A program made the translations under genes and the position numbers. The notes under the pieces were generated by a model. It ran no database searches. It was not told the origin of the DNA and was given only the letters and a program-made list of their open reading frames with translations. A stretch of DNA of 46,134 nucleotides from a phage. The number at the start of each line of letters is the position of its first letter. Within the stretch, counting starts at the first letter, position 1. Positions 1,061-42,295 of this stretch are shown here, in pieces. The stretch lies in sequence record PZ379182.1. One strand, 5' to 3'.

Positions 1061-1234
1061 TTAATCTGCGATAATAAATTCCACCAAAGAGCCATCAATC
1101 GGCGCAAGGATGTGAGTCATATCGTCACCGTAAACTTTGTAGTAACCGTCACCTAGAGACTCTGCGCTGTACGGCTGGTTTTCGGTGAACGGCAGTGTCT
1201 TTGAGTTGTTTTTAACGCAGTATAATTTAGTCAT
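1061..1234 (-). CDS. hypothetical protein (57 aa)
   Basis: ORF below the track size cut-off; AGAGGA RBS before ATG; preceded by a copy of the intergenic cassette. Confidence 0.35.
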   Translation of the reverse strand: MTKLYCVKNNSKTLPFTENQPYSAESLGDGYYKVYGDDMTHILAPIDGSLVEFIIAD

Positions 1235-4463: not shown

Positions 4464-4658
4464 TTATACCTCATCAAATTTTTCGCCGAATTCGTTTTTA
4501 ACAGTTTCCAGATCATATCTGTAAGTTGGGCTAACTTCGAATGCATATGTGCAGTCTTCAATGTCAACCAAAACATAACCATCTTCAGTTACTTGCATCT
4601 CGTAGATGTAGCCAGTCTTGCGTGATTCGTAGAATTTACCAGTATAGATAGTAGCCAT
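4464..4658 (-). CDS. hypothetical protein
   Basis: 64-aa ORF; AGAGAGAAAG RBS region; preceded by intergenic cassette copy at 4680-4742. Confidence 0.5.
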   Translation of the reverse strand: MATIYTGKFYESRKTGYIYEMQVTEDGYVLVDIEDCTYAFEVSPTYRYDLETVKNEFGEKFDEV

Positions 4659-11381: not shown

Positions 11382-11837
11382 TCAGAATGGAATATCTCCG
11401 TCGAATGTGTTTTGCTGTTGTTGTTGTTGTTGTTGCTGTTGATGTTGTTGTTGCTGTTGATGTTGCGGTTGATGGCGCTGTTGTTGCTCTGTATTTTTAT
11501 GTTGCTGTGCACCCTCACCACGCTGACTAAACTCAAGACGAGGATTGTTCATGTTAATTGTTATGTAAGTCTTGCCATCTTTATCTCGAACATCTAATGC
11601 TAACGTCTCACAACTTACGCTAACAATCTTCCCTTCCTGAAACGCTTCGTTATACCATGTAAGCATTGATTCCTTTGCGAAGAAGACGGCACGATAGTTG
11701 CTATACTGAGATTGACCATCTTTATCCTTGTAACGCTCACTTAAATCAACCGCGTACATCTTCCAACTGCCATTTGCATTCTGACCTTCTTTAGTGAACG
11801 GAGCGCGACGGATAACACCAGTGATTACATGACTCAT
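11382..11837 (-). CDS. ssb: single-stranded DNA-binding protein with glutamine-rich linker
   Basis: 151 aa; OB-fold-like N-terminus, C-terminal acidic tail DGDIPF, poly-Q/H linker. Confidence 0.85.
   Translation of the reverse strand: MSHVITGVIRRAPFTKEGQNANGSWKMYAVDLSERYKDKDGQSQYSNYRAVFFAKESMLTWYNEAFQEGKIVSVSCETLALDVRDKDGKTYITINMNNPRLEFSQRGEGAQQHKNTEQQQRHQPQHQQQQQHQQQQQQQQQQNTFDGDIPF
11412..11495. repeat. CAG/CAA trinucleotide repeat tract encoding the SSB poly-glutamine linker
   Basis: Plus strand reads (TTG/CTG)n continuously over about 80 nt. Confidence 0.8.
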
Positions 11838-13768: not shown

Positions 13769-13900
13769 TTCTCTATCTCTCTATTGTTGTTTGCTTTCGA
13801 TGCGTTAATGATGCCGCACGCAAGACACACAGTCCAATTGGTATCACCGATTAATTAATCAAGTATACGCGTATAAATCCGTAACTATGTGTAGACATTG

Positions 13901-14155
13901 CCATTAGTTACGTTTTTCACCACTTCAGCCCAGCTATAGCTCAATGTAAATAGTGCGTATACCGTGTATACCGATTTTTGCGGAGGGTGCATAGTTATAT
14001 GCGCCACGCAATACTGTATAAAATCACATTATATAAAAATTATAACCGGAACACTCCAGAACAGTAGTTACATGATATACACAGTAATATATATAATAAT
14101 AATAATAAGAGTAAATGGTTGATATATATAGATATTATTATGTAACTATGGCGTA
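13901..14155. repeat. AT-rich regulatory/origin-like module, copy 1 (palindrome, (ATA/TAA)n microsatellite, 30-bp conserved core)
   Basis: GTTACGTTTTTCACC...CAGCCCAGCTATAGCT at 13901-13941, (ATA)n at 14086-14108, core GGTTGATATATATAGATATTATTATGTAAC at 14117-14146; the same blocks recur at 41546-41785. Confidence 0.7.
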
Positions 14156-14309
14156 TCAAAGCGTAACTAGGCGTATACGATTTCCCGCTGATGCATATGG
14201 TATACATAGAGTTACATCGGTTACGCGTAACCAACAGCACGAATAGCTAAAACTAATCCGCAAAACCATGTATAGTTGGTCACACAAAAAAACGAGAGAG
14301 GATTTCAAA

Positions 14310-15067: not shown

Positions 15068-15313
15068 ATGACTAACTTAATCAAACTTTCAATCATCGCA
15101 GCAGCAGCAATCATGATGGTGGGTTGTTCTTCTGCTCCGCGTCCTGACGGATGGTGTGCAACGCAAGCAAACGGCGTGTGCGTGGCTAAATGGGAAAATG
15201 GTGTGGTTGTACCGTCTGGTGAAGTTGATGTGCGATACGCTGGTATTGAGAGCAAGGCTGGCGGCGGTTACGGTGGCTCTGTTGCTGACCATGGGTCTAA
15301 GGAGTGGAAATAA
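15068..15313 (+). CDS. small lipoprotein, Cor-like superinfection-exclusion candidate
   Basis: 81 aa; signal peptide with lipobox MVGCSS; T1/phi80-type phages carry a small lipoprotein cor gene near tail genes. Confidence 0.5.
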
Positions 15314-21855: not shown

Positions 21856-21893
21856 ATTCTCTCCAATAAAAAAAGGCCCACATGAGCCTTAGT

Positions 21894-31936: not shown

Positions 31937-32665
31937 TTATGACTCCCAATCCGGCACAGCCCAACAACGACAGCCGTATTCCTGACCAGGGAAGAGATCG
32001 TTACCGCTCAACCTGAAGCTTAGGCCCTCTTTCTTGAAATGGGTCATTCGCTCCCTTTCATCAAGCATGCCGTGCCAAATGTAATGGGTAACACCAGCAT
32101 CCTCTAGCCTCCTGCGCATGAACGTAGAGTTAATACTGGACGTGATGCCTGAGGCTATATTAGCAGTTCTCTTGCGGTAAATCTTGTACCTTTCGTTAAT
32201 CTTAAGGTAGTCACCACTCTGTATGATTGATGCAGACTGAATAAAGTCGTCCTTGATATTGTTGAGTAACTTTTCAACGGACTTATTTGATGTGTAAAGC
32301 CACTGTTTTAAATCCGGCTGATACCAATCTTCATCTCCATTTATACCGTTAAGTCTCAAGTCCATAACTGACTGGACCGAGCCGCCACCGGTCTTGATTG
32401 CCAGCACAAGAAACTGCGATGAATTATACCTGTATATTGACGCTCCAATTGCCGGAAGTGTAGCTACAACAGAAGCTATAAGCGCTGCTATGATTGCGTC
32501 GAGATAATTATCTTCCTGCTCTAGCTCCTCGGCAGTGTCAATCTTAAGCCGCGTAGCTGATTCTTTCATTGCAGATATTAGCTCAGTTACCGCAACGCTA
32601 AGGTTGCGGTTTACCTGATTCTCAATTGTCTGCGGGTACTTCCAGCGGGTCTTCACTGGTTTCAT
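31937..32665 (-). CDS. head morphogenesis protein (Mu F / SPP1 gp7-like minor capsid protein)
   Basis: 242 aa; C-terminal GCRCW motif typical of this family; directly downstream of portal. Confidence 0.7.
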   Translation of the reverse strand: MKPVKTRWKYPQTIENQVNRNLSVAVTELISAMKESATRLKIDTAEELEQEDNYLDAIIAALIASVVATLPAIGASIYRYNSSQFLVLAIKTGGGSVQSVMDLRLNGINGDEDWYQPDLKQWLYTSNKSVEKLLNNIKDDFIQSASIIQSGDYLKINERYKIYRKRTANIASGITSSINSTFMRRRLEDAGVTHYIWHGMLDERERMTHFKKEGLSFRLSGNDLFPGQEYGCRCWAVPDWES

Positions 32666-33899
32666 TGATTGTTACCTCTGTCTCAATTGAACCTTCACCA
32701 ATCTTAACCTCAGGGGCTAATGCGCGCAAGGTATCTCGTGCTTCGTCTGCATCCATCACGCCGTTAGTGATAAGAGCAGTAATTGAATCAACGTTATTCT
32801 TCAGTACTTCAGCGCGGTCTTTCTTCGATTCCTGAGCTAGAGGGTTAAACTCAACTGACCATTCTTGCTCGGTTGTGACGAACGGGATTAAGAACCCAAG
32901 AACTGGAAGTAGCTCTTCGTTACGCTTGCGGTCAATCAACTTATGGAATGTCTCTAGCGCTGTGTTTTGGCTTGATGACAACCCGCCAACGTTACGACCT
33001 TTGAGAATGATTTCATGGATACCGCTCAGAGCAACAATTCTGTCGAACTTCTTATCGAGGAATCCATCAATCCCACCAATATCCGAGTTAAGAACGCTGT
33101 ACTCTTCAGCTTCAGCGTCGATACCAATCGCGCGACCAACGCCAGAGTTATCATCAACCTGGGCAAGCCTCAACCTGGCCGCACCAAAACCTTCCGCGTC
33201 GTCACACAGTTCAGCAAGGCCTTTAGCCTTCCACACCGCCTGCTGCTTGCGGCGCAATAACTGAGTTGCCAGTTTCTCACACGTCTGATAATCCTTGATT
33301 GATTCAAGCAGGTCAGGAACCAGAACGCTAGCACCCCACCCGTCATTACCGCGACGCAATGAACTAGGAATCTTCTCGCCATCCATAATGTGAACTCGCG
33401 AGTAGTGCACATCATAAAACATGGCGCCACCTTCTGGCGTGATGCGGTACGTTAATGGCTTACCGAATCGCACATTGCGAGGGTTTTCCTCCTTAGTCTG
33501 AACTCTTACCTGGCTACGCTCATAAACGCGAAGTGATTCAAGTTCCGCGCCTTCACGTACCGGGCTAGTTAGCGCACGATTGTCCTTAACGATAGCCACA
33601 ATTGCAGAGCCGCCAAATAACCTCGCCCATGACCATGCGTCAGAGATTGACTCGTTAACCCTCAGGTAATCCCACCTGGACCAGAATTCACCTTCGTCAT
33701 CAATACCATCGATATGGAAACCTGCGGCGATTGCTGTCTCCGGTATGGTGTCGACGATGCGGCGTACAATTGAGTTTGATGCGTACAGTGAATCAGCGAA
33801 AGGAGGTGTAAGATACGTGTTGCCAAAGTGCCCGTAAATCTCGCTACCATCACTGGAGCCACCAAGAAATTGCGTGGCGTATGAATCTGCTTTTACCAT
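32622..33899 (-). CDS. portal protein
   Basis: Track ORF 32622..33926; the first ATG lies inside a hairpin loop, the ATG at about 33899 has a GGAG RBS; about 425 aa downstream of terminase. Confidence 0.85.
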   Translation of the reverse strand: MVKADSYATQFLGGSSDGSEIYGHFGNTYLTPPFADSLYASNSIVRRIVDTIPETAIAAGFHIDGIDDEGEFWSRWDYLRVNESISDAWSWARLFGGSAIVAIVKDNRALTSPVREGAELESLRVYERSQVRVQTKEENPRNVRFGKPLTYRITPEGGAMFYDVHYSRVHIMDGEKIPSSLRRGNDGWGASVLVPDLLESIKDYQTCEKLATQLLRRKQQAVWKAKGLAELCDDAEGFGAARLRLAQVDDNSGVGRAIGIDAEAEEYSVLNSDIGGIDGFLDKKFDRIVALSGIHEIILKGRNVGGLSSSQNTALETFHKLIDRKRNEELLPVLGFLIPFVTTEQEWSVEFNPLAQESKKDRAEVLKNNVDSITALITNGVMDADEARDTLRALAPEVKIGEGSIETEVTINETSEDPLEVPADN

Positions 33900-33911
33900 T
33901 TTATTTGCTCC

Positions 33912-33937
33912 AATAAAAAGCCCCATTTAGGGGCTTA
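33912..33937 (-). terminator. putative intrinsic terminator
   Basis: Minus strand AAGCCCC-TAAAT-GGGGCTT followed by TTTATTGG. Confidence 0.5.
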
Positions 33938-33957
33938 GTTTAGCATAGCTTTTATGG

Positions 33958-34311
33958 TTACTCGAATTTTACTTCGAACTTGATTGATGATGTTTTCACT
34001 CCATTAAGTGTTAACTGGCGAACCTCCCTTCTGACTTCATAAAATGCCTCTTTAGTTACTATGTCTTTGTTGATGAAGTATTTAATCCCAGCCTTTTCAA
34101 CTTTAAAATTATCACCTTTAACGACAAAATCGGTAGGCTCTATAACTTCGAAATCATAAACACTAAGATTAATTACGCCCAAATAGCCTTTATCATCCTT
34201 AACTTTTACGTATTCATTATTACTTCCAGGCGTTCTTGATAAGTCATAAATCTTACCAACGGTAAAATCAAAATAACCAGCTTTTTTATACCCTTTAAAT
34301 ACTGCTTTCAT
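33958..34311 (-). CDS. hypothetical protein inserted between terminase large subunit and portal (moron candidate)
   Basis: 117 aa, Lys-rich; own upstream cassette copy (34330-34386) and downstream hairpin. Confidence 0.5.
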   Translation of the reverse strand: MKAVFKGYKKAGYFDFTVGKIYDLSRTPGSNNEYVKVKDDKGYLGVINLSVYDFEVIEPTDFVVKGDNFKVEKAGIKYFINKDIVTKEAFYEVRREVRQLTLNGVKTSSIKFEVKFE

Positions 34312-34329
34312 TTTTTACTCCTCTCGTTT

Positions 34330-34386
34330 GCGTGAAGTAACTATAAGCCATCCTTGGCGGCGCGTCTTTAGCAAAACGTGCTATTT
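34330..34386 (-). promoter_or_regulatory. intergenic cassette copy downstream of terL
   Basis: Minus strand AAATAGCACGTTTTGCTAAAG, GCCAAGGATGGC hairpin, TTATAGTTACTTCACGCAAACGAGAGGAG. Confidence 0.55.
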
Positions 34387-36000
34387 GATGCCAGCGAGGC
34401 GCATCATCCTCGATTTAGGGTCTTCTGCAATGTTCAGTACCAGGTTGACAGCCATTGTCAAACAGTCTATCTGGTCATCGTGAACATGTGAATCATCTGC
34501 CGTGAATGCCGCAATCTCCGTTAGCAAGCCATTAAGCCAAGTAGCAGACTCCGGAAGGATTACGTTACCAGCTTTAATCTGCGGCAATGCACTCATTACG
34601 CGAGTCAGCTTATCGTTATCAGGAACGTACGGCTCGATAGGCGTTCGCATAACCCTTCCGGCTGATTGAATCAGGCCAATACCAGAGGCTTTCTTCTCGA
34701 TGATGATTTTACGAAGGATACCATCTATCTGATTGGATGCCCTAGCCATCTTCTCGAAATCCAATAACTCAGCCTCGAGCTCAGGAGCTTCAAATTTACC
34801 GCGCCGCTGGTCAAGCAGATAAATCTTCCCATCCTTATAACCCCATAGCTGCATGACGCTAAAGTCGCTGTAACTTTTGGTTGTCATCGCAGTATCAAGG
34901 ACCATAAACCTGTAATCGTACTTAGCTGGCGGTCGCAGAGTGTCGCTAATGCGTTGAAGCCAGTCTACGTTAATCAGGTTGCCGCCAAGTGCTACTGGTT
35001 CTTGCTGATACTGGCTAAGGAATGTATAGCTATCAGAATCCCACATTGCAACTAGGTCGTGAACAGATTCCTTGCCAGGGAAATAGCTATAGTACCTAAC
35101 ACCATCACGCTCAATATATTCGCTTGATAGAACGTCATCAATGAATTGCTGCTTAATCCAGTCAGGGAGCGTGTCGACGTAATTCTCAGTTACGAGCGCC
35201 GGTATCTTAATCAAGTCGAAGCTAATACCCATACCGCCATTCATCATGAACCACGTACTATCATTCACATGAAGGCGCTGTTGGATAGAGATAATCGGCG
35301 TCGCCTTGCCTTTTACCGAGCTAGCCCTACGAGAACGTATGGTGTTCTTTAGCATCACATGGTTGTTGGCACGGAATACAGCCGAAAGCATATCTGCAGG
35401 TTTGTCAAAATCATCTAACAGTACTGCGCCACTATATGAATCTGTTATATACCCACCCCTTGCGCCGGTAATCTGACCGCCAGCAGCTTTTGAGATTGAT
35501 TCAAACCGGACCTTTCCAGACTCATCAAGGACCTGTAACTCATCGTCCTTGCACGTGCCGAACTTGCAAGGGAATAACTCCTGGAACTCAACAGACTTAA
35601 TCAGGTCGCGCACTCGCTTGGAGTTGCGCTTAACCAGTGAGTCAGCAAATGAGATGTTGAGGTTCCTTACCTTCTTTAGCTTCACCATTGAGTATGCTGG
35701 GAAGTGAATTGAGGCTATCTCTGTTTTTCCGCTACCTGGTGCTATGTTAATGATAGTGTCCTTGCGCTCACCTGCGATAATCTCGTCAATGATTCTGCAA
35801 AGGTATTTATGATGCCAGTTTGGGATGTACCGCTCTCCCTGAGTTAGCTGGAACCACACCCGCAAGAATCCCTCGAAGCTATGAGTGGATATCGCCTTAA
35901 CCGCCATCTTTTCTGCTGTCGTCATTTCCTCCCAAACTAAATTAGCCATAATTTCACCAATCCAACCATCACGCCAATTAAGAATCCAGTTGTGAAGCAT
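34381..36000 (-). CDS. terminase large subunit
   Basis: 539 aa; ATPase Walker A-like INIAPGSGKTE, C-terminal nuclease region; follows terS. Confidence 0.9.
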   Translation of the reverse strand: MLHNWILNWRDGWIGEIMANLVWEEMTTAEKMAVKAISTHSFEGFLRVWFQLTQGERYIPNWHHKYLCRIIDEIIAGERKDTIINIAPGSGKTEIASIHFPAYSMVKLKKVRNLNISFADSLVKRNSKRVRDLIKSVEFQELFPCKFGTCKDDELQVLDESGKVRFESISKAAGGQITGARGGYITDSYSGAVLLDDFDKPADMLSAVFRANNHVMLKNTIRSRRASSVKGKATPIISIQQRLHVNDSTWFMMNGGMGISFDLIKIPALVTENYVDTLPDWIKQQFIDDVLSSEYIERDGVRYYSYFPGKESVHDLVAMWDSDSYTFLSQYQQEPVALGGNLINVDWLQRISDTLRPPAKYDYRFMVLDTAMTTKSYSDFSVMQLWGYKDGKIYLLDQRRGKFEAPELEAELLDFEKMARASNQIDGILRKIIIEKKASGIGLIQSAGRVMRTPIEPYVPDNDKLTRVMSALPQIKAGNVILPESATWLNGLLTEIAAFTADDSHVHDDQIDCLTMAVNLVLNIAEDPKSRMMRLAGIK

Positions 36001-36067
36001 GTAGCCGCTATCATGTAATACGCCAATAATGCCTTAATCAATTTTATCATACCAACCCGCCATGTTC

Positions 36068-36592
36068 TTACAGTTTGCTAATCACAGACTCCAGCGCTTC
36101 CTTCATCGTATCGACGTCGTTAGCTGAAGAGTTGTTGCTGATGGTAATCTCCTGCGGCTTGTCGATTCCAAGCTCTTTGGAAATCATGCCAGGGTTAATG
36201 ATGCCAGATGCTGCAAGCTGGTATTTCTGCTCGCGAATCACGGAATCAATGAACGCAATCACCTCATCATAACCAGCCGACTTCCTCCATTTCTCGATAG
36301 CGCTATGGGTGACACCGCAGTAAAGGCAGAATCCGGTTAGCGTGAAGACTCGTGGTTTGTGCACCAGGCTCTCTTTTACCACACCCTGGAAGCTGGCTGT
36401 CTCGATTGCCTTGATTGCCTGGTCCTCAGCCCATGAGAAGTATTTCACGGCGAATTCAAATAGCTGTTCGGGTGTCATGCTTCGGTTTTTGGCTAGCGTT
36501 GTAATGTCTGAGTACTTTTTATTGTACATGGCTTTAAAGTTGCCAGAGCGGACCTTTTCTTGCGCCTGACTGGTGAAGTTTTCGTCTTTCAT
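36068..36592 (-). CDS. terminase small subunit
   Basis: 174 aa; AAGGAGG RBS; immediately upstream of terL. Confidence 0.7.
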   Translation of the reverse strand: MKDENFTSQAQEKVRSGNFKAMYNKKYSDITTLAKNRSMTPEQLFEFAVKYFSWAEDQAIKAIETASFQGVVKESLVHKPRVFTLTGFCLYCGVTHSAIEKWRKSAGYDEVIAFIDSVIREQKYQLAASGIINPGMISKELGIDKPQEITISNNSSANDVDTMKEALESVISKL

Positions 36593-37393: not shown

Positions 37394-37591
37394 TCAACTT
37401 ACTCTTTCGAATTTCCCATAATTCTGGTCATACGGGTAGTCAATGCTCACCAATTCGCCATTATCGCTGTAGCAGAATACGTGGCCAGTCTTCGATACCT
37501 TTTCGACCTGGTAATCGCATCCATCCATGAAGTCATCCGATGCCGCCTTTGTGCACTTGATAGCATCGCCTTTCTTAATAATTTTATTCAT
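37394..37591 (-). CDS. hypothetical protein
   Basis: Track ORF 37394..37594; ATG preceded by GAGGAG. Confidence 0.5.
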   Translation of the reverse strand: MNKIIKKGDAIKCTKAASDDFMDGCDYQVEKVSKTGHVFCYSDNGELVSIDYPYDQNYGKFERVS

Positions 37592-38390
37592 CAAAACTCC
37601 TCAGTTATAAGCATCTTGCCACAATCTTTGCACTCGTAGAATGCACATGCTTTCACCAACTAATAGACTTGGTTTTGTTGACTCGTGGTACTTGCATCGT
37701 TTAGCGCTTTAATGTCAAAATCGTTAATGATTTGATGTGAACACGTAAACGTAGCGATGCTTGTGATTGATTTCTTTATTATTCATAAAGGCTATTCCCA
37801 TTCTGATCATGGCCTACGCGACATTTTCTATAACCAGCAATCCACACAAATTTGTCTCGAGCAATTAGTGTCGAAACCGGCCCCCACACTTGAGTAATCA
37901 GCGCTGCCACTACCTTATCATCTTTCTTCTTTGCGCCCAAGTTTGCCGTATTCGTCATTCAGCTTATCAGCCTGTCGCTTGACTGCGTTAAAGTATGCGT
38001 CGTCTAATCCGAACATTATTCATCATCCTCCTCGCATGCTATGAGACTATCGCAATTATCACGGCATCGCAAATGCCTTTGGTGCTTTAGCTATTCGTGG
38101 CTGTAAATCAAGTCAGCAATGACTTAACAAATTCGATCTGGAGTAACCATCTCATTCGCTTCGTATGGCTCTATGCAATCTCTTCGTTGTATGAATGAGT
38201 TGAACGTTATCATGGCAAATCCGATGCGCTGTCATGCAATTACGCAATTCGTGCGTATGCCATTTCTTATCTTCACGCTCTTTCCATAGATTTCAGTTAG
38301 CTCGTAAGTACATTCATGGCATCTTCGCCAGTCTTAGCCTCATCCATGCATCCGTGCAGGCCCACTGGCTTGGTGTTTCGTAGTTATCCA

Positions 38391-41448: not shown

Positions 41449-41545
41449 ATTCGTTACTCCTGATTGGTTGCTCTTCGTTAAGATGAAACCATGGTATCAT
41501 GAATATACGCGTTATCAAGTGTTATGTTGTGTTTATATCTGCATT

Positions 41546-41785
41546 GGTTACGCTTTTTGACCTCTCAGCCCAGCTATAGCTGGTGTAATTACCCTGTGTA
41601 AGATTTTACGCGGATTCGCCGGGGGTATGCATATGTATCTATATAGATAAAATTAGTAGTTTTCATAGAAAAACTATCGACCCATCCATACGACCAATCT
41701 ACACCATATACATACATATATATAATAATAATAATAATATAGTAAAAGGTTGATATATATAGATATTATTATGTAACCATTGCGT
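41546..41785. repeat. AT-rich regulatory/origin-like module, copy 2
   Basis: GTTACGCTTTTTGACC, perfect 14-bp palindrome CCAGCTATAGCTGG at 41570-41583, (ATA/TAA)n at 41715-41740, core GGTTGATATATATAGATATTATTATGTAAC at 41748-41777. Confidence 0.7.
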
Positions 41786-42295
41786 AATCTAGCGTGGTAG
41801 GCGTGTATGATTCTTCGGAAGCGCACCTCATATACACACCATAACTTCGATAACGTGTATATCCAAATTGGCTCAGCAAGAATCAAAATCAACTTGTATG
41901 GTAGTCCATCCACCATTCATTCACCCCACATCGATCATTGCAAATTCTGCAACAATCAAAAACATCATTGCATTCGATGCAATATTGCTATATGTGCAAT
42001 AATGAGATGAATCATTGCAATAGCTGCAACAATCTATAAATCCAACGAATAGCACTTTTTGCTAATGCACAATCATTAGTAAGTTGCTACTATGTATTCA
42101 TCGAAACGGTGCTGGACTCTGAGTCACTTCCGAAAGGAACCAAAAGAGTGAACGACACCGCGCAATGTGAGGAAGCGTTACCTTACCCACCAAAGCGCCT
42201 TGCGGGTCCTTTTGATAGGATGCCGGGCCGGGTTTAAAATCCCGAGTTGTAGTGAGTACGTTGAAGAGATTTCGATAACAAGAAAACATAGAGAG

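What the first reader, a model, noticed from the sequence alone, without database searches (positions are those of the whole stretch)
33912..34386. Extra gene inserted between terminase large subunit and portal
Terminase and portal genes are normally adjacent. Here a 117-aa Lys-rich protein (33958..34311) sits between them with its own upstream cassette copy and a downstream hairpin, as expected for a moron-type insertion. Such positions often carry host-interaction or anti-defence cargo.
Basis: partly seen in the sequence, partly recalled or inferred. Interest (0 to 1): 0.5.

Follow-up and report, generated by a model that had tools for sequence, protein, structure and literature searches.

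The report
Mobile accessory gene between terminase and portal
A small gene of unknown function, with its own promoter-like element, sits between the DNA-packaging and portal genes of this T1-like coliphage; most relatives lack it, so it is a real but fairly ordinary optional phage gene.

Summary
A 117-aa ORF (33958-34311, minus strand; 17 Lys; strong RBS) lies between TerL and portal. A copy of the phage's repeated palindromic cassette lies upstream and a terminator hairpin downstream.

The window is a Drexlerviridae (Braunvirinae) phage about 99% identical to phages ES and AN_ECEAS. About 830 family genomes match this region, and only 38 carry a detectable homologue. Near relatives (TR2, 12210I, Rogue1) and a T1-like Tunavirus have TerL, terminator and portal directly adjacent.

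The insert is about 435 bp and consists of the cassette plus the ORF. The terminator also occurs at empty sites, so it is not part of the insert. The gene has 32.5% GC against 47-49% in its flanks. IMM-001 has 97% identical flanking proteins but a 34% identical allele.

Family members, each with the same cassette, also occupy two tail-gene junctions (M|L and L|K), sometimes as a second copy in one genome. Distant members lie in early regions of ~140-kb rV5-like myoviruses.

The predicted protein has an SH3-like barrel and a small beta-beta-alpha-beta domain joined by a variable linker. No function could be assigned by homology, and I found no experimental source for the database label "virion structural protein".

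Verdict: a moron-like mobile accessory gene. An intracellular host-directed or counter-defence role is plausible but untested.

The parts
34358..34386 (-). 5' end of the inserted unit: the repeated cassette core AAATAGCACGTTTTGCTAAAGAC. The palindrome TAGCA-N5-TGCTA lies at 34369-34383 and overlaps the TerL stop codon TAG (34381-34383).
   Evidence: Repeat family D4. 16 sites in the window against 1.9 expected. The exact palindrome accompanies the gene in 15 gene-bearing loci and is absent from 5 gene-less junctions.
34347..34358 (-). Short hairpin GCCA-AGGA-TGGC inside the cassette.
   Evidence: Read from the sequence. In other cassette copies the stem differs but stays complementary (CTCA/TGAG, CCGGA/TCCGG, GCCTCA/TGAGGC). 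Not tested statistically.
34340..34345 (-). -10-like hexamer TATAGT. It lies 23 nt after TTGCTA, which is too far for that hexamer to serve as a sigma-70 -35.
   Evidence: the same hexamer is at the same distance in homologous units of other phages. The consensus promoter scan did not call it. Promoter activity is inferred.
34312..34339 (-). Conserved leader TACTTCACGCAAACGAGAGGAGTAAAAA, containing the RBS GAGAGGAG (34318-34325).
   Evidence: Mean DNA identity to six other phages over the bin 34351-34322, which covers the hairpin, the -10-like hexamer and the first part of this leader, is 0.87, higher than in the flanking TerL gene at 0.57-0.68.
33958..34311 (-). Accessory gene, 117 aa. Residues 1-58 (34138-34311) form an SH3-like beta-barrel. 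Residues 59-74 (34090-34137) are a variable, low-confidence linker. Residues 75-117 (33961-34089) form a beta-beta-alpha-beta domain. The stop codon is at 33958-33960.
33937..33957 (-). Conserved 3' untranslated stretch CCATAAAAGCTATGCTAAACT. It contains the 3' boundary of the insert relative to gene-less phages, with homology to empty sites resuming around AAGC..TGATAAACTA.
   Evidence: DNA identity 0.96 over 33973-33944. Junction comparison with TR2, 12210I and Rogue1.
33909..33936 (-). Intrinsic-terminator hairpin AAGCCCC-TAAAT-GGGGCTT plus T-run, running into the portal RBS (TTTTATTGGAG). This is resident punctuation of the site, not part of the insert.
   Evidence: Terminator scan. The same element is at empty TerL|portal junctions of TR2, 12210I, Rogue1 and SA32RD, where it is annotated as a terminator. 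A sister copy lies at the window's empty M|L junction, 21857-21890.
34381..36000 (-). Terminase large subunit, the upstream flank of the slot.
   Evidence: PF17289, and phrog_38 at E=4.5e-107.
32622..33899 (-). Portal protein, the downstream flank of the slot. The start at 33899 (MVKADSY) follows the phage ES annotation.
   Evidence: PF06381 at E=2.5e-66; ES annotation.

Best explanation
The feature is a self-contained accessory unit of about 435 bp inserted directly after the TerL stop codon and just upstream of the terminator that normally separates TerL from portal in T1-like phages. The unit consists of the phage's repeated palindromic promoter-like cassette, a conserved leader with RBS, and a 117-aa ORF.

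Shown:
- The unit is optional in the family.
- It is compositionally foreign.
- Very different alleles sit between nearly identical flanks.
- Its two ends are more conserved than the neighbouring essential genes.
- Family members with the same cassette also sit at two tail-gene junctions that carry the same kind of terminator-plus-RBS punctuation, sometimes as a second copy in one genome.
- Distant members lie among small early genes of rV5-like myoviruses.

Inferred:
- The unit spreads by recombination between co-infecting phages. This uses either the conserved flanking genes or its own conserved ends and the repeated punctuation, as described for morons of lambdoid phages and PeSL cassettes of T4-type phages.
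- The cassette lets the gene be transcribed independently of the late operon. The same cassette precedes the primase, helicase, Erf recombinase, tail-fibre and several small genes.
- The product is a soluble cytoplasmic two-domain protein with no signal peptide or membrane segment. Its core residues are conserved but its surface and charge vary widely.

My best guess is that it binds a host or defence protein during infection (host takeover or counter-defence) and is dispensable for virion assembly.

Approximate probabilities: real gene 0.97; optional mobile moron-like unit 0.8; non-structural intracellular role 0.5; counter-defence specifically 0.25.
For: Distribution:
- 830 Drexlerviridae records match the TerL-portal segment and 38 hold a homologue.
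- Gene-less junctions in TR2, 12210I, Rogue1, SA32RD and Skenny show a TerL stop, then a hairpin (plus a T-run and GGAG-type RBS in the first four), then the portal start.

Foreign composition:
- 32.5% GC against 46.7% and 49.3% in the flanks.
- Other copies have 33-40% GC against 42-49% in their flanks.

Allele replacement:
- IMM-001 has TerL C-terminal and portal N-terminal regions 97% and 96.5% identical to the window, but its accessory protein is 34% identical.
- The ends of the unit have DNA identity of 0.87 and 0.96, while the interior has 0.21-0.5.

Several insertion sites, all with the same cassette:
- M|L: L018, L022, L023 and JulesPiccard.
- L|K: AugustePiccard and ACG-M12.
- AugustePiccard, JulesPiccard, ACG-M12 and phiEB49 each have two copies.

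Outside the family:
- L010 is a ~140-kb Vequintavirinae-like contig. The gene lies there after DNA polymerase, and a Drexlerviridae-type cassette follows it.
- In UPEC06, LTH01 and A5-4 a distant member lies next to DNA ligase.

Cassette:
- The exact palindrome accompanies the gene in 15 gene-bearing loci and is absent from 5 gene-less junctions.
- It precedes primase, helicase, Erf, tail-fibre and small genes.

Protein:
- Only the termini and core residues are conserved, and pI ranges from 4.4 to 9.1.
Against: - No experiment or homology assigns a function.
- PHROGs (phrog_14592) and RefSeq label the family "virion structural protein", and one GenBank record calls it "putative minor outer capsid protein". 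I could not trace these labels to data, but I cannot exclude that data exist.
- Every Drexlerviridae copy lies inside the head or tail operon, which would also suit a virion accessory protein.
- The cassette does not fit a sigma-70 promoter (22-23 nt between TTGCTA and TATAGT) and was not called by the promoter scan. Independent transcription is therefore inferred from its position before many genes.
- The direction of events (insertion versus repeated loss) is not resolved. The empty and filled junctions share AAA(T/A)AGC microhomology that fits either direction.
- The memberships of the most distant members (P0039 at E=5e-6, P0040 at E=2e-5) are significant and full-length but rest on sequence only.
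Confidence: 0.6

Rival explanations
1. The protein is a genuine minor virion component, such as an optional decoration or accessory protein of head or tail, as the database label says. Its surface would be hypervariable because it is exposed.
For: - phrog_14592 is labelled "virion structural protein", and RefSeq uses the same name for Rtp, Jk06, ACG-M12, phiEB49, CEB_EC3a and Sd1.
- AN_ECEAS calls it "putative minor outer capsid protein".
- All Drexlerviridae copies lie within morphogenesis operons.
Against: - No proteomic source for the label was found. The Rogue1, AHP24-group and ACG-M12 papers do not report it.
- The gene is absent from phages whose TerL and portal are 93-97% identical (TR2) and from most of the family.
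- The same family sits at head and tail junctions and in early or replication regions of rV5-like myoviruses. This is hard to reconcile with one docking site on a virion.
- Charge is not conserved.
Confidence: 0.2
2. The protein is a slot-specific helper of DNA packaging or head assembly that works with TerL or portal. This would be comparable in position to lambda gpW, which is encoded between the terminase large subunit and portal genes.
For: - Its position is directly between TerL and portal.
- In RobRod40 an HNH endonuclease gene shares the same gap.
- Lambda's A-W-B gene order is from my own knowledge.
Against: - Most Drexlerviridae package DNA without it.
- Paralogues sit at the tail junctions M|L and L|K and in myovirus early regions.
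Confidence: 0.05
3. The unit is a selfish or nearly neutral ORFan. It persists because its conserved ends and the repeated punctuation make it recombine efficiently, and it gives the phage no benefit.
For: - Distribution is patchy, with several copies and several sites.
- The ends are more conserved than the interior.
- In phiEB49 the TerL|portal copy is interrupted in an A-run: gp57 is annotated as 68 aa and tblastn covers residues 1-102. This could also be a homopolymer sequencing error.
Against: - The fold-determining residues (G7, G19, Y22, D39, F54, N81, F90, G104, E113) and both termini are kept across members that are only 30-40% identical.
- All indels are in frame.
- A confident two-domain fold is predicted from the alignment.

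Together these indicate purifying selection on a working protein.
Confidence: 0.12

Closest known systems
Morons of lambdoid phages (HK97/HK022 type: an extra gene with its own promoter and terminator between two late genes). The concept is cited from my own knowledge (Juhala et al. 2000; Hendrix et al. 2000).
   Same: An extra gene sits between two genes that are adjacent in relatives. Its base composition differs from its neighbours. A promoter-like element lies upstream and a terminator downstream. It is located in the late operon.
   Different: The host phage is virulent, so there is no expression from a prophage and no benefit to a lysogen. The terminator is resident at the site. The upstream element is the phage's own repeated cassette rather than a foreign sigma-70 promoter.
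PeSL mobile regulatory cassettes of T4-type phages (PMC2839356, PMC4122927)
   Same: Short conserved promoter and stem-loop motifs are repeated through the genome and flank small non-essential ORFs. Insertions, deletions and replacements between close relatives have their boundaries at these motifs.
   Different: The sequence motif is different (palindrome TAGCA-N5-TGCTA plus a small hairpin and TATAGT). It is not a canonical sigma-70 promoter. The sites lie inside the morphogenesis operon of a siphovirus, not in hyperplastic early regions. Mini-circle intermediates were not tested.
phrog_14592 / Rtp22 / Jk06 JK_35P / phiEB49 gp57 and gp37 (uncharacterised, labelled "virion structural protein")
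   Same: The window protein matches phrog_14592 over its whole length (E=9e-29) and is 32-50% identical to these proteins.
   Different: None of these proteins has a demonstrated function. The window allele is the only basic one among 35 aligned members. Apart from ES and AN_ECEAS, it is at most 67% identical to any other homologue found.
Gp54 of phage Bas11, a small beta-barrel protein that triggers CapRel-SJ46 (PDB 9axb; PMC11578894)
   Different: The resemblance is at fold level only (15% identity), and many cellular SH3 domains score as well or better. Gp54 has a single domain of 66 aa and comes from an unrelated phage group. No homology is claimed.

Membership tests
Moron (lambdoid-phage sense) | Extra gene between two genes that are adjacent in related phages | tested here: met
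   TerL and portal are adjacent in TR2, 12210I, Rogue1, SA32RD, Skenny and about 40 sampled records. The gene is present in 38 records.
Moron (lambdoid-phage sense) | Base composition differs from neighbouring genes | tested here: met
   GC is 32.5% in the gene against 46.7% (TerL) and 49.3% (portal). Other copies show the same trend.
Moron (lambdoid-phage sense) | Own promoter upstream and own terminator downstream | tested here: inconclusive
   A promoter-like cassette travels with the gene, but it is not a sigma-70 consensus promoter and its activity is untested. The terminator is real but belongs to the empty site too.
Moron (lambdoid-phage sense) | Expressed from the prophage, independently of late transcription | not testable with these tools
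   Drexlerviridae are virulent. The timing of expression would need transcript mapping.
PeSL-type mobile regulatory cassette system | Conserved regulatory motif repeated many times in the genome | tested here: met
   16 palindrome sites against 1.9 expected; repeat families D3, D4 and D5.
PeSL-type mobile regulatory cassette system | Boundaries of indels and replacements between relatives coincide with the motifs | tested here: met
   The left boundary is at the cassette and TerL stop. The right boundary is just before the resident terminator. Identity peaks at both ends of the unit.
PeSL-type mobile regulatory cassette system | Motif is a strong sigma-70 early promoter plus a terminator stem-loop | tested here: not met
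   There is no sigma-70 -35 hexamer at 16-18 nt. The hairpin inside the cassette has only 4-6 bp and is not followed by a T-run.
PeSL-type mobile regulatory cassette system | Excised mini-circles | not testable with these tools
   Would need PCR or sequencing of phage DNA.
phrog_14592 protein family | Significant full-length profile match | tested here: met
   E=9.3e-29, residues 1-117 on profile positions 2-116 of 116.
Virion structural protein (functional class) | Detected in purified particles, or homologous to a protein of known virion location | tested here: inconclusive
Known anti-phage defence components (PADLOC) | Match to a defence-system protein model | tested here: not met
   No match at E<=1. 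No library of anti-defence proteins was available.

The most novel reading that the evidence does not exclude
Virulent T1-like phages may carry a family of promoter-equipped small genes that move among a few terminator-marked junctions of the late operon (TerL|portal, M|L, L|K) and into unrelated coliphages. The genes encode a conserved SH3-like scaffold with a rapidly changing surface. On this reading the scaffold acts as an interchangeable binder of host immunity or host-takeover targets. That would make it a moron and PeSL-like counter-defence toolkit in a phage group where none has been described.
Probability: 0.2. Interest if true: 0.6.

Novelty: new member of a known kind. Interest (0 to 1): 0.4.

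Why it matters
The gene is small, optional and fast-evolving, has its own regulatory element, and sits inside an otherwise conserved structural operon. Genes of this kind are a common place to find phage counter-defence or host-takeover functions.

The family is compact (about 26 clusters at 50% identity) and easy to delete. It is present in the well-studied BASEL phages Bas01 and Bas03, so its role could be tested directly.

The recurring cassette and terminator punctuation also offer a concrete model for how virulent siphoviruses exchange accessory genes. If the protein turns out to be a minor virion component, the result instead corrects or confirms a database label that I could not trace to published data.

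Tried and rejected
Protein searches that found nothing:
- Pfam, NCBIfam and PADLOC gave no match for the protein.
- Profile searches of PDB sequences, with the whole protein and with the C-domain, gave only chance-level or designed-protein hits.
- Foldseek against viral models returned family members and many unannotated ~60-aa barrels.

Leads rejected:
- Four long proteins at the tail of the representative search (P0041-P0044) are Ig-like, lectin or secretion-tail repeat proteins. I treated them as compositional matches.
- Rfam found only a sub-threshold match over the terminator.
- I compared the palindrome with the sigma-54 consensus (TGGCAC-N5-TTGC) by eye. The spacing is 2 nt short and GG is replaced by AG, so I rejected it.
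- A sigma-70 reading with TTGCTA as the -35 was rejected because of the 22-23 nt spacer.

Literature:
- Searches for the origin of the \"virion structural protein\" label and for any description of the cassette found nothing relevant.

Technical:
- The search for related loci with the wide alignment A2 failed for lack of a conserved stretch. With A1 it returned 5 loci.
- Weak matches of the N-domain profile to three other small ORFs of the window (E 0.008-0.03) are too marginal to claim paralogy.

Full report
**What is there**

On the minus strand the order is TerS (36068-36592), TerL (34381-36000), a 117-aa ORF (33958-34311) and portal (32622-33899). The ORF has an ATG start and a strong RBS. 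It has 17 lysines, a pI of 9.1 and 32.5% GC, against 46.7% for TerL and 49.3% for portal.

Directly after the TerL stop codon lies AAATAGCACGTTTTGCTAAAGAC. This is one of 16 copies in the window of the palindrome TAGCA-N5-TGCTA, where 1.9 copies are expected by chance. It is followed by a 4-bp hairpin, TATAGT and a conserved leader.

After the ORF come 21 nt and then a terminator hairpin with a T-run that runs into the portal RBS.

**Where the window comes from, and how common the gene is**

The region is 99.5% identical to Escherichia phages ES and AN_ECEAS (Drexlerviridae, Braunvirinae). A 3-kb TerL-portal query matches 830 phage records. Only 38 of them encode a detectable homologue, at 32-50% identity apart from ES and AN_ECEAS.

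In the evenly sampled rows, every record that spans both genes is 380-439 nt shorter than the window, apart from four: ES, the gene-bearing Veterinaerplatzvirus T145P1, RobRod40 and Jk06. That deficit is the size of the unit.

Annotated gene-less junctions were read in five phages:
- TR2 (Christensenvirus)
- 12210I (Veterinaerplatzvirus)
- Rogue1 (Rogunavirus)
- SA32RD (Tunavirus, T1-like)
- Skenny (Webervirus)

All five show a TerL stop, 10-20 nt, then a hairpin before the portal start. In the first four the hairpin is followed by a T-run and a GGAG-type RBS. The terminator therefore belongs to the site. The insert is the cassette plus the ORF plus about 13 nt, roughly 435 bp.

Presence and absence both occur within single genera.

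**Signs of exchange rather than slow divergence**

IMM-001 has a TerL C-terminus and a portal N-terminus 97% and 96.5% identical to the window, but its accessory protein is only 34% identical. TR2 has 96% and 93% identical flanks and no gene at all.

Across seven phages, DNA identity to the window is as follows:
- 0.87 in the cassette hairpin and leader bin (34351-34322)
- 0.96 in the last 30 nt of the gene plus the 3' UTR
- 0.57-0.68 in TerL
- 0.21-0.5 in the interior of the gene

At protein level, the first 8 and last 10 residues are about 80% conserved, while residues 25-36 and 59-75 are 9-15% conserved.

**More than one insertion site**

Looking up distant family members showed the same kind of unit elsewhere:
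- Between the tail genes M and L in L018, L022, L023 and JulesPiccard.
- Between the tail genes L and K in AugustePiccard and ACG-M12.

AugustePiccard, JulesPiccard, ACG-M12 and phiEB49 each carry two copies.

Every Drexlerviridae copy has the same structure. It starts right at the stop codon of the upstream gene with the same cassette: palindrome, GCCAnGGATGGC hairpin, TATAGT and ACTTCACACAAACGAGAGGAG. It ends in front of a TAAACTA-hairpin-TTTTTTATTGGAG punctuation.

The window has exactly two such punctuations. One is at the occupied TerL|portal site and the other is at its empty M|L site.

The exact palindrome lies about 70 nt upstream of the gene in the 14 Drexlerviridae loci that carry it and have an exact match, and in none of the five gene-less TerL|portal loci. 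phiEB49's copy has one mismatch.

Distant members also occur in ~140-kb Vequintavirinae-like myoviruses:
- In a metagenomic contig (L010), the gene lies after DNA polymerase among small ORFs. A consensus sigma-70 promoter precedes it and a Drexlerviridae-type cassette follows it.
- In UPEC06, LTH01 and A5-4, the gene lies next to DNA ligase.

**The protein**

The family is small: about 26 representatives at 50% identity among 1.8 billion proteins, all 100-140 aa. There is no match in Pfam, NCBIfam, PADLOC or PDB sequences.

AlphaFold2 with a 35-sequence alignment gives pLDDT 86. It predicts three parts:
- An N-terminal five-stranded barrel, residues 1-58.
- A low-confidence, length-variable linker, residues 60-71.
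- A C-terminal beta-beta-alpha-beta domain, residues 75-117. This domain reaches pLDDT 96.8 when modelled alone.

By eye the sequence has no signal peptide or hydrophobic segment. Charge is not conserved: 32 of 35 members are acidic and this one is basic. That argues against a conserved nucleic-acid-binding role and shows that lysine richness is peculiar to this allele.

**The \"virion structural protein\" label**

PHROGs and RefSeq use this name. I found no experimental basis for it. The Rogue1 and AHP24-group proteomics papers and the ACG-M12 genome paper do not report the protein. GenBank submitters mostly call it hypothetical.

The family is absent from close relatives with nearly identical head proteins. 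It also occurs at head and tail junctions and in myovirus early regions. Both facts make one fixed structural role unlikely, though it is not excluded.

**Interpretation**

The data fit a moron-like, horizontally exchanged accessory unit. It is optional, AT-rich, carries its own promoter-like element, and sits upstream of a terminator inside the late operon.

[quoted passage not shown] The motif itself is different, however, and it is not a canonical sigma-70 promoter: TTGCTA and TATAGT are 22-23 nt apart.

The same cassette precedes the primase, helicase, Erf recombinase, a PNK-like gene, the tail fibre gene and several small ORFs. It is therefore the phage's general transcription signal and not something foreign.

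I infer, without direct evidence, that the gene is transcribed independently of TerL. I also infer that its product is an intracellular protein-binding factor acting on a host or defence component.

**Verdict**

The finding is a new, uncharacterised member of a known kind of phage feature. Interest is moderate.

Noticed in passing
window 36001-36067 (TerS-TerL gap): The window has no HNH endonuclease gene between TerS and TerL. ES, AN_ECEAS, Rtp and TR2 carry one there, so this is a second presence/absence polymorphism in the packaging module.
   Followed up: partly
window 15068-15313 (+): An 81-aa ORF with a lipoprotein-type signal (..IMMVGCSS..) is preceded by a full cassette copy and matches phrog_4281 (unknown function). 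It is a candidate Cor/Llp-like superinfection-exclusion lipoprotein.
   Followed up: no
window, 16 sites, e.g. 1294, 4725, 12587, 14984, 34369, 40292, 43198, 43978: The cassette has a fixed layout: palindrome TAGCA-N5-TGCTA, a short hairpin whose stem sequence changes between copies but stays complementary (in some copies it encloses the -10), a TATAGT-like hexamer 22-23 nt after TTGCTA, and a leader ACTyCAyCGAAACGA. It does not fit sigma-70 or sigma-54 spacing, so a phage-encoded or host dimeric regulator may be involved.
   Followed up: partly
window 21857-21890 (-) and 33909-33936 (-): The punctuation TAAACTAAG-hairpin-TTTTTTATTGGAG occurs exactly twice in the window. Both are at junctions (M|L and TerL|portal) where this gene family inserts in other phages.
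   Followed up: partly
window 1061-1234 (-), 4464-4658 (-), 37394-37594 (-): Three small ORFs (57-66 aa), at least two of them cassette-driven, weakly match the N-domain profile (E 0.008-0.03 among 289 ORFs). They may be stand-alone SH3-like proteins.
   Followed up: partly
window 14069-14164 and 41700-41795: A pair of 96-nt AT-rich direct repeats, 75% identical and containing TATATATAATAATAATAA runs, lies 27.6 kb apart. A second repeat pair lies nearby at 13888-13941 and 41528-41581.
   Followed up: no
window 11400-11508: A run of TTG/CTG triplets with period 9-12 (repeat family D1) lies inside the minus-strand ORF 11382-11837. It would encode a Gln-rich stretch.
   Followed up: no
L010 2832-5673 (IMG/VR 140-kb Vequintavirinae-like contig): The homologue lies in a row of small ORFs that share the motif hydrophobic-x-x-G-x-x-Y ... 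DDxG with its N-domain. This suggests a tandem array of SH3-like mini-proteins downstream of DNA polymerase. The gene there is preceded by a perfect TTGACA-17-TATAAT promoter with a hairpin over the -10.
   Followed up: partly
L004 3505-3981 (RobRod40); L022 5194-5691 and L025 2759-3241: The same junctions also hold other optional genes. RobRod40 has an HNH endonuclease with its own cassette-like copy (one mismatch in the palindrome) in the TerL|portal gap. L022 has a pRha-domain gene between tail genes L and K, and JulesPiccard has an unannotated 160-aa gene in that same gap. These junctions appear to be general hot spots.
   Followed up: no
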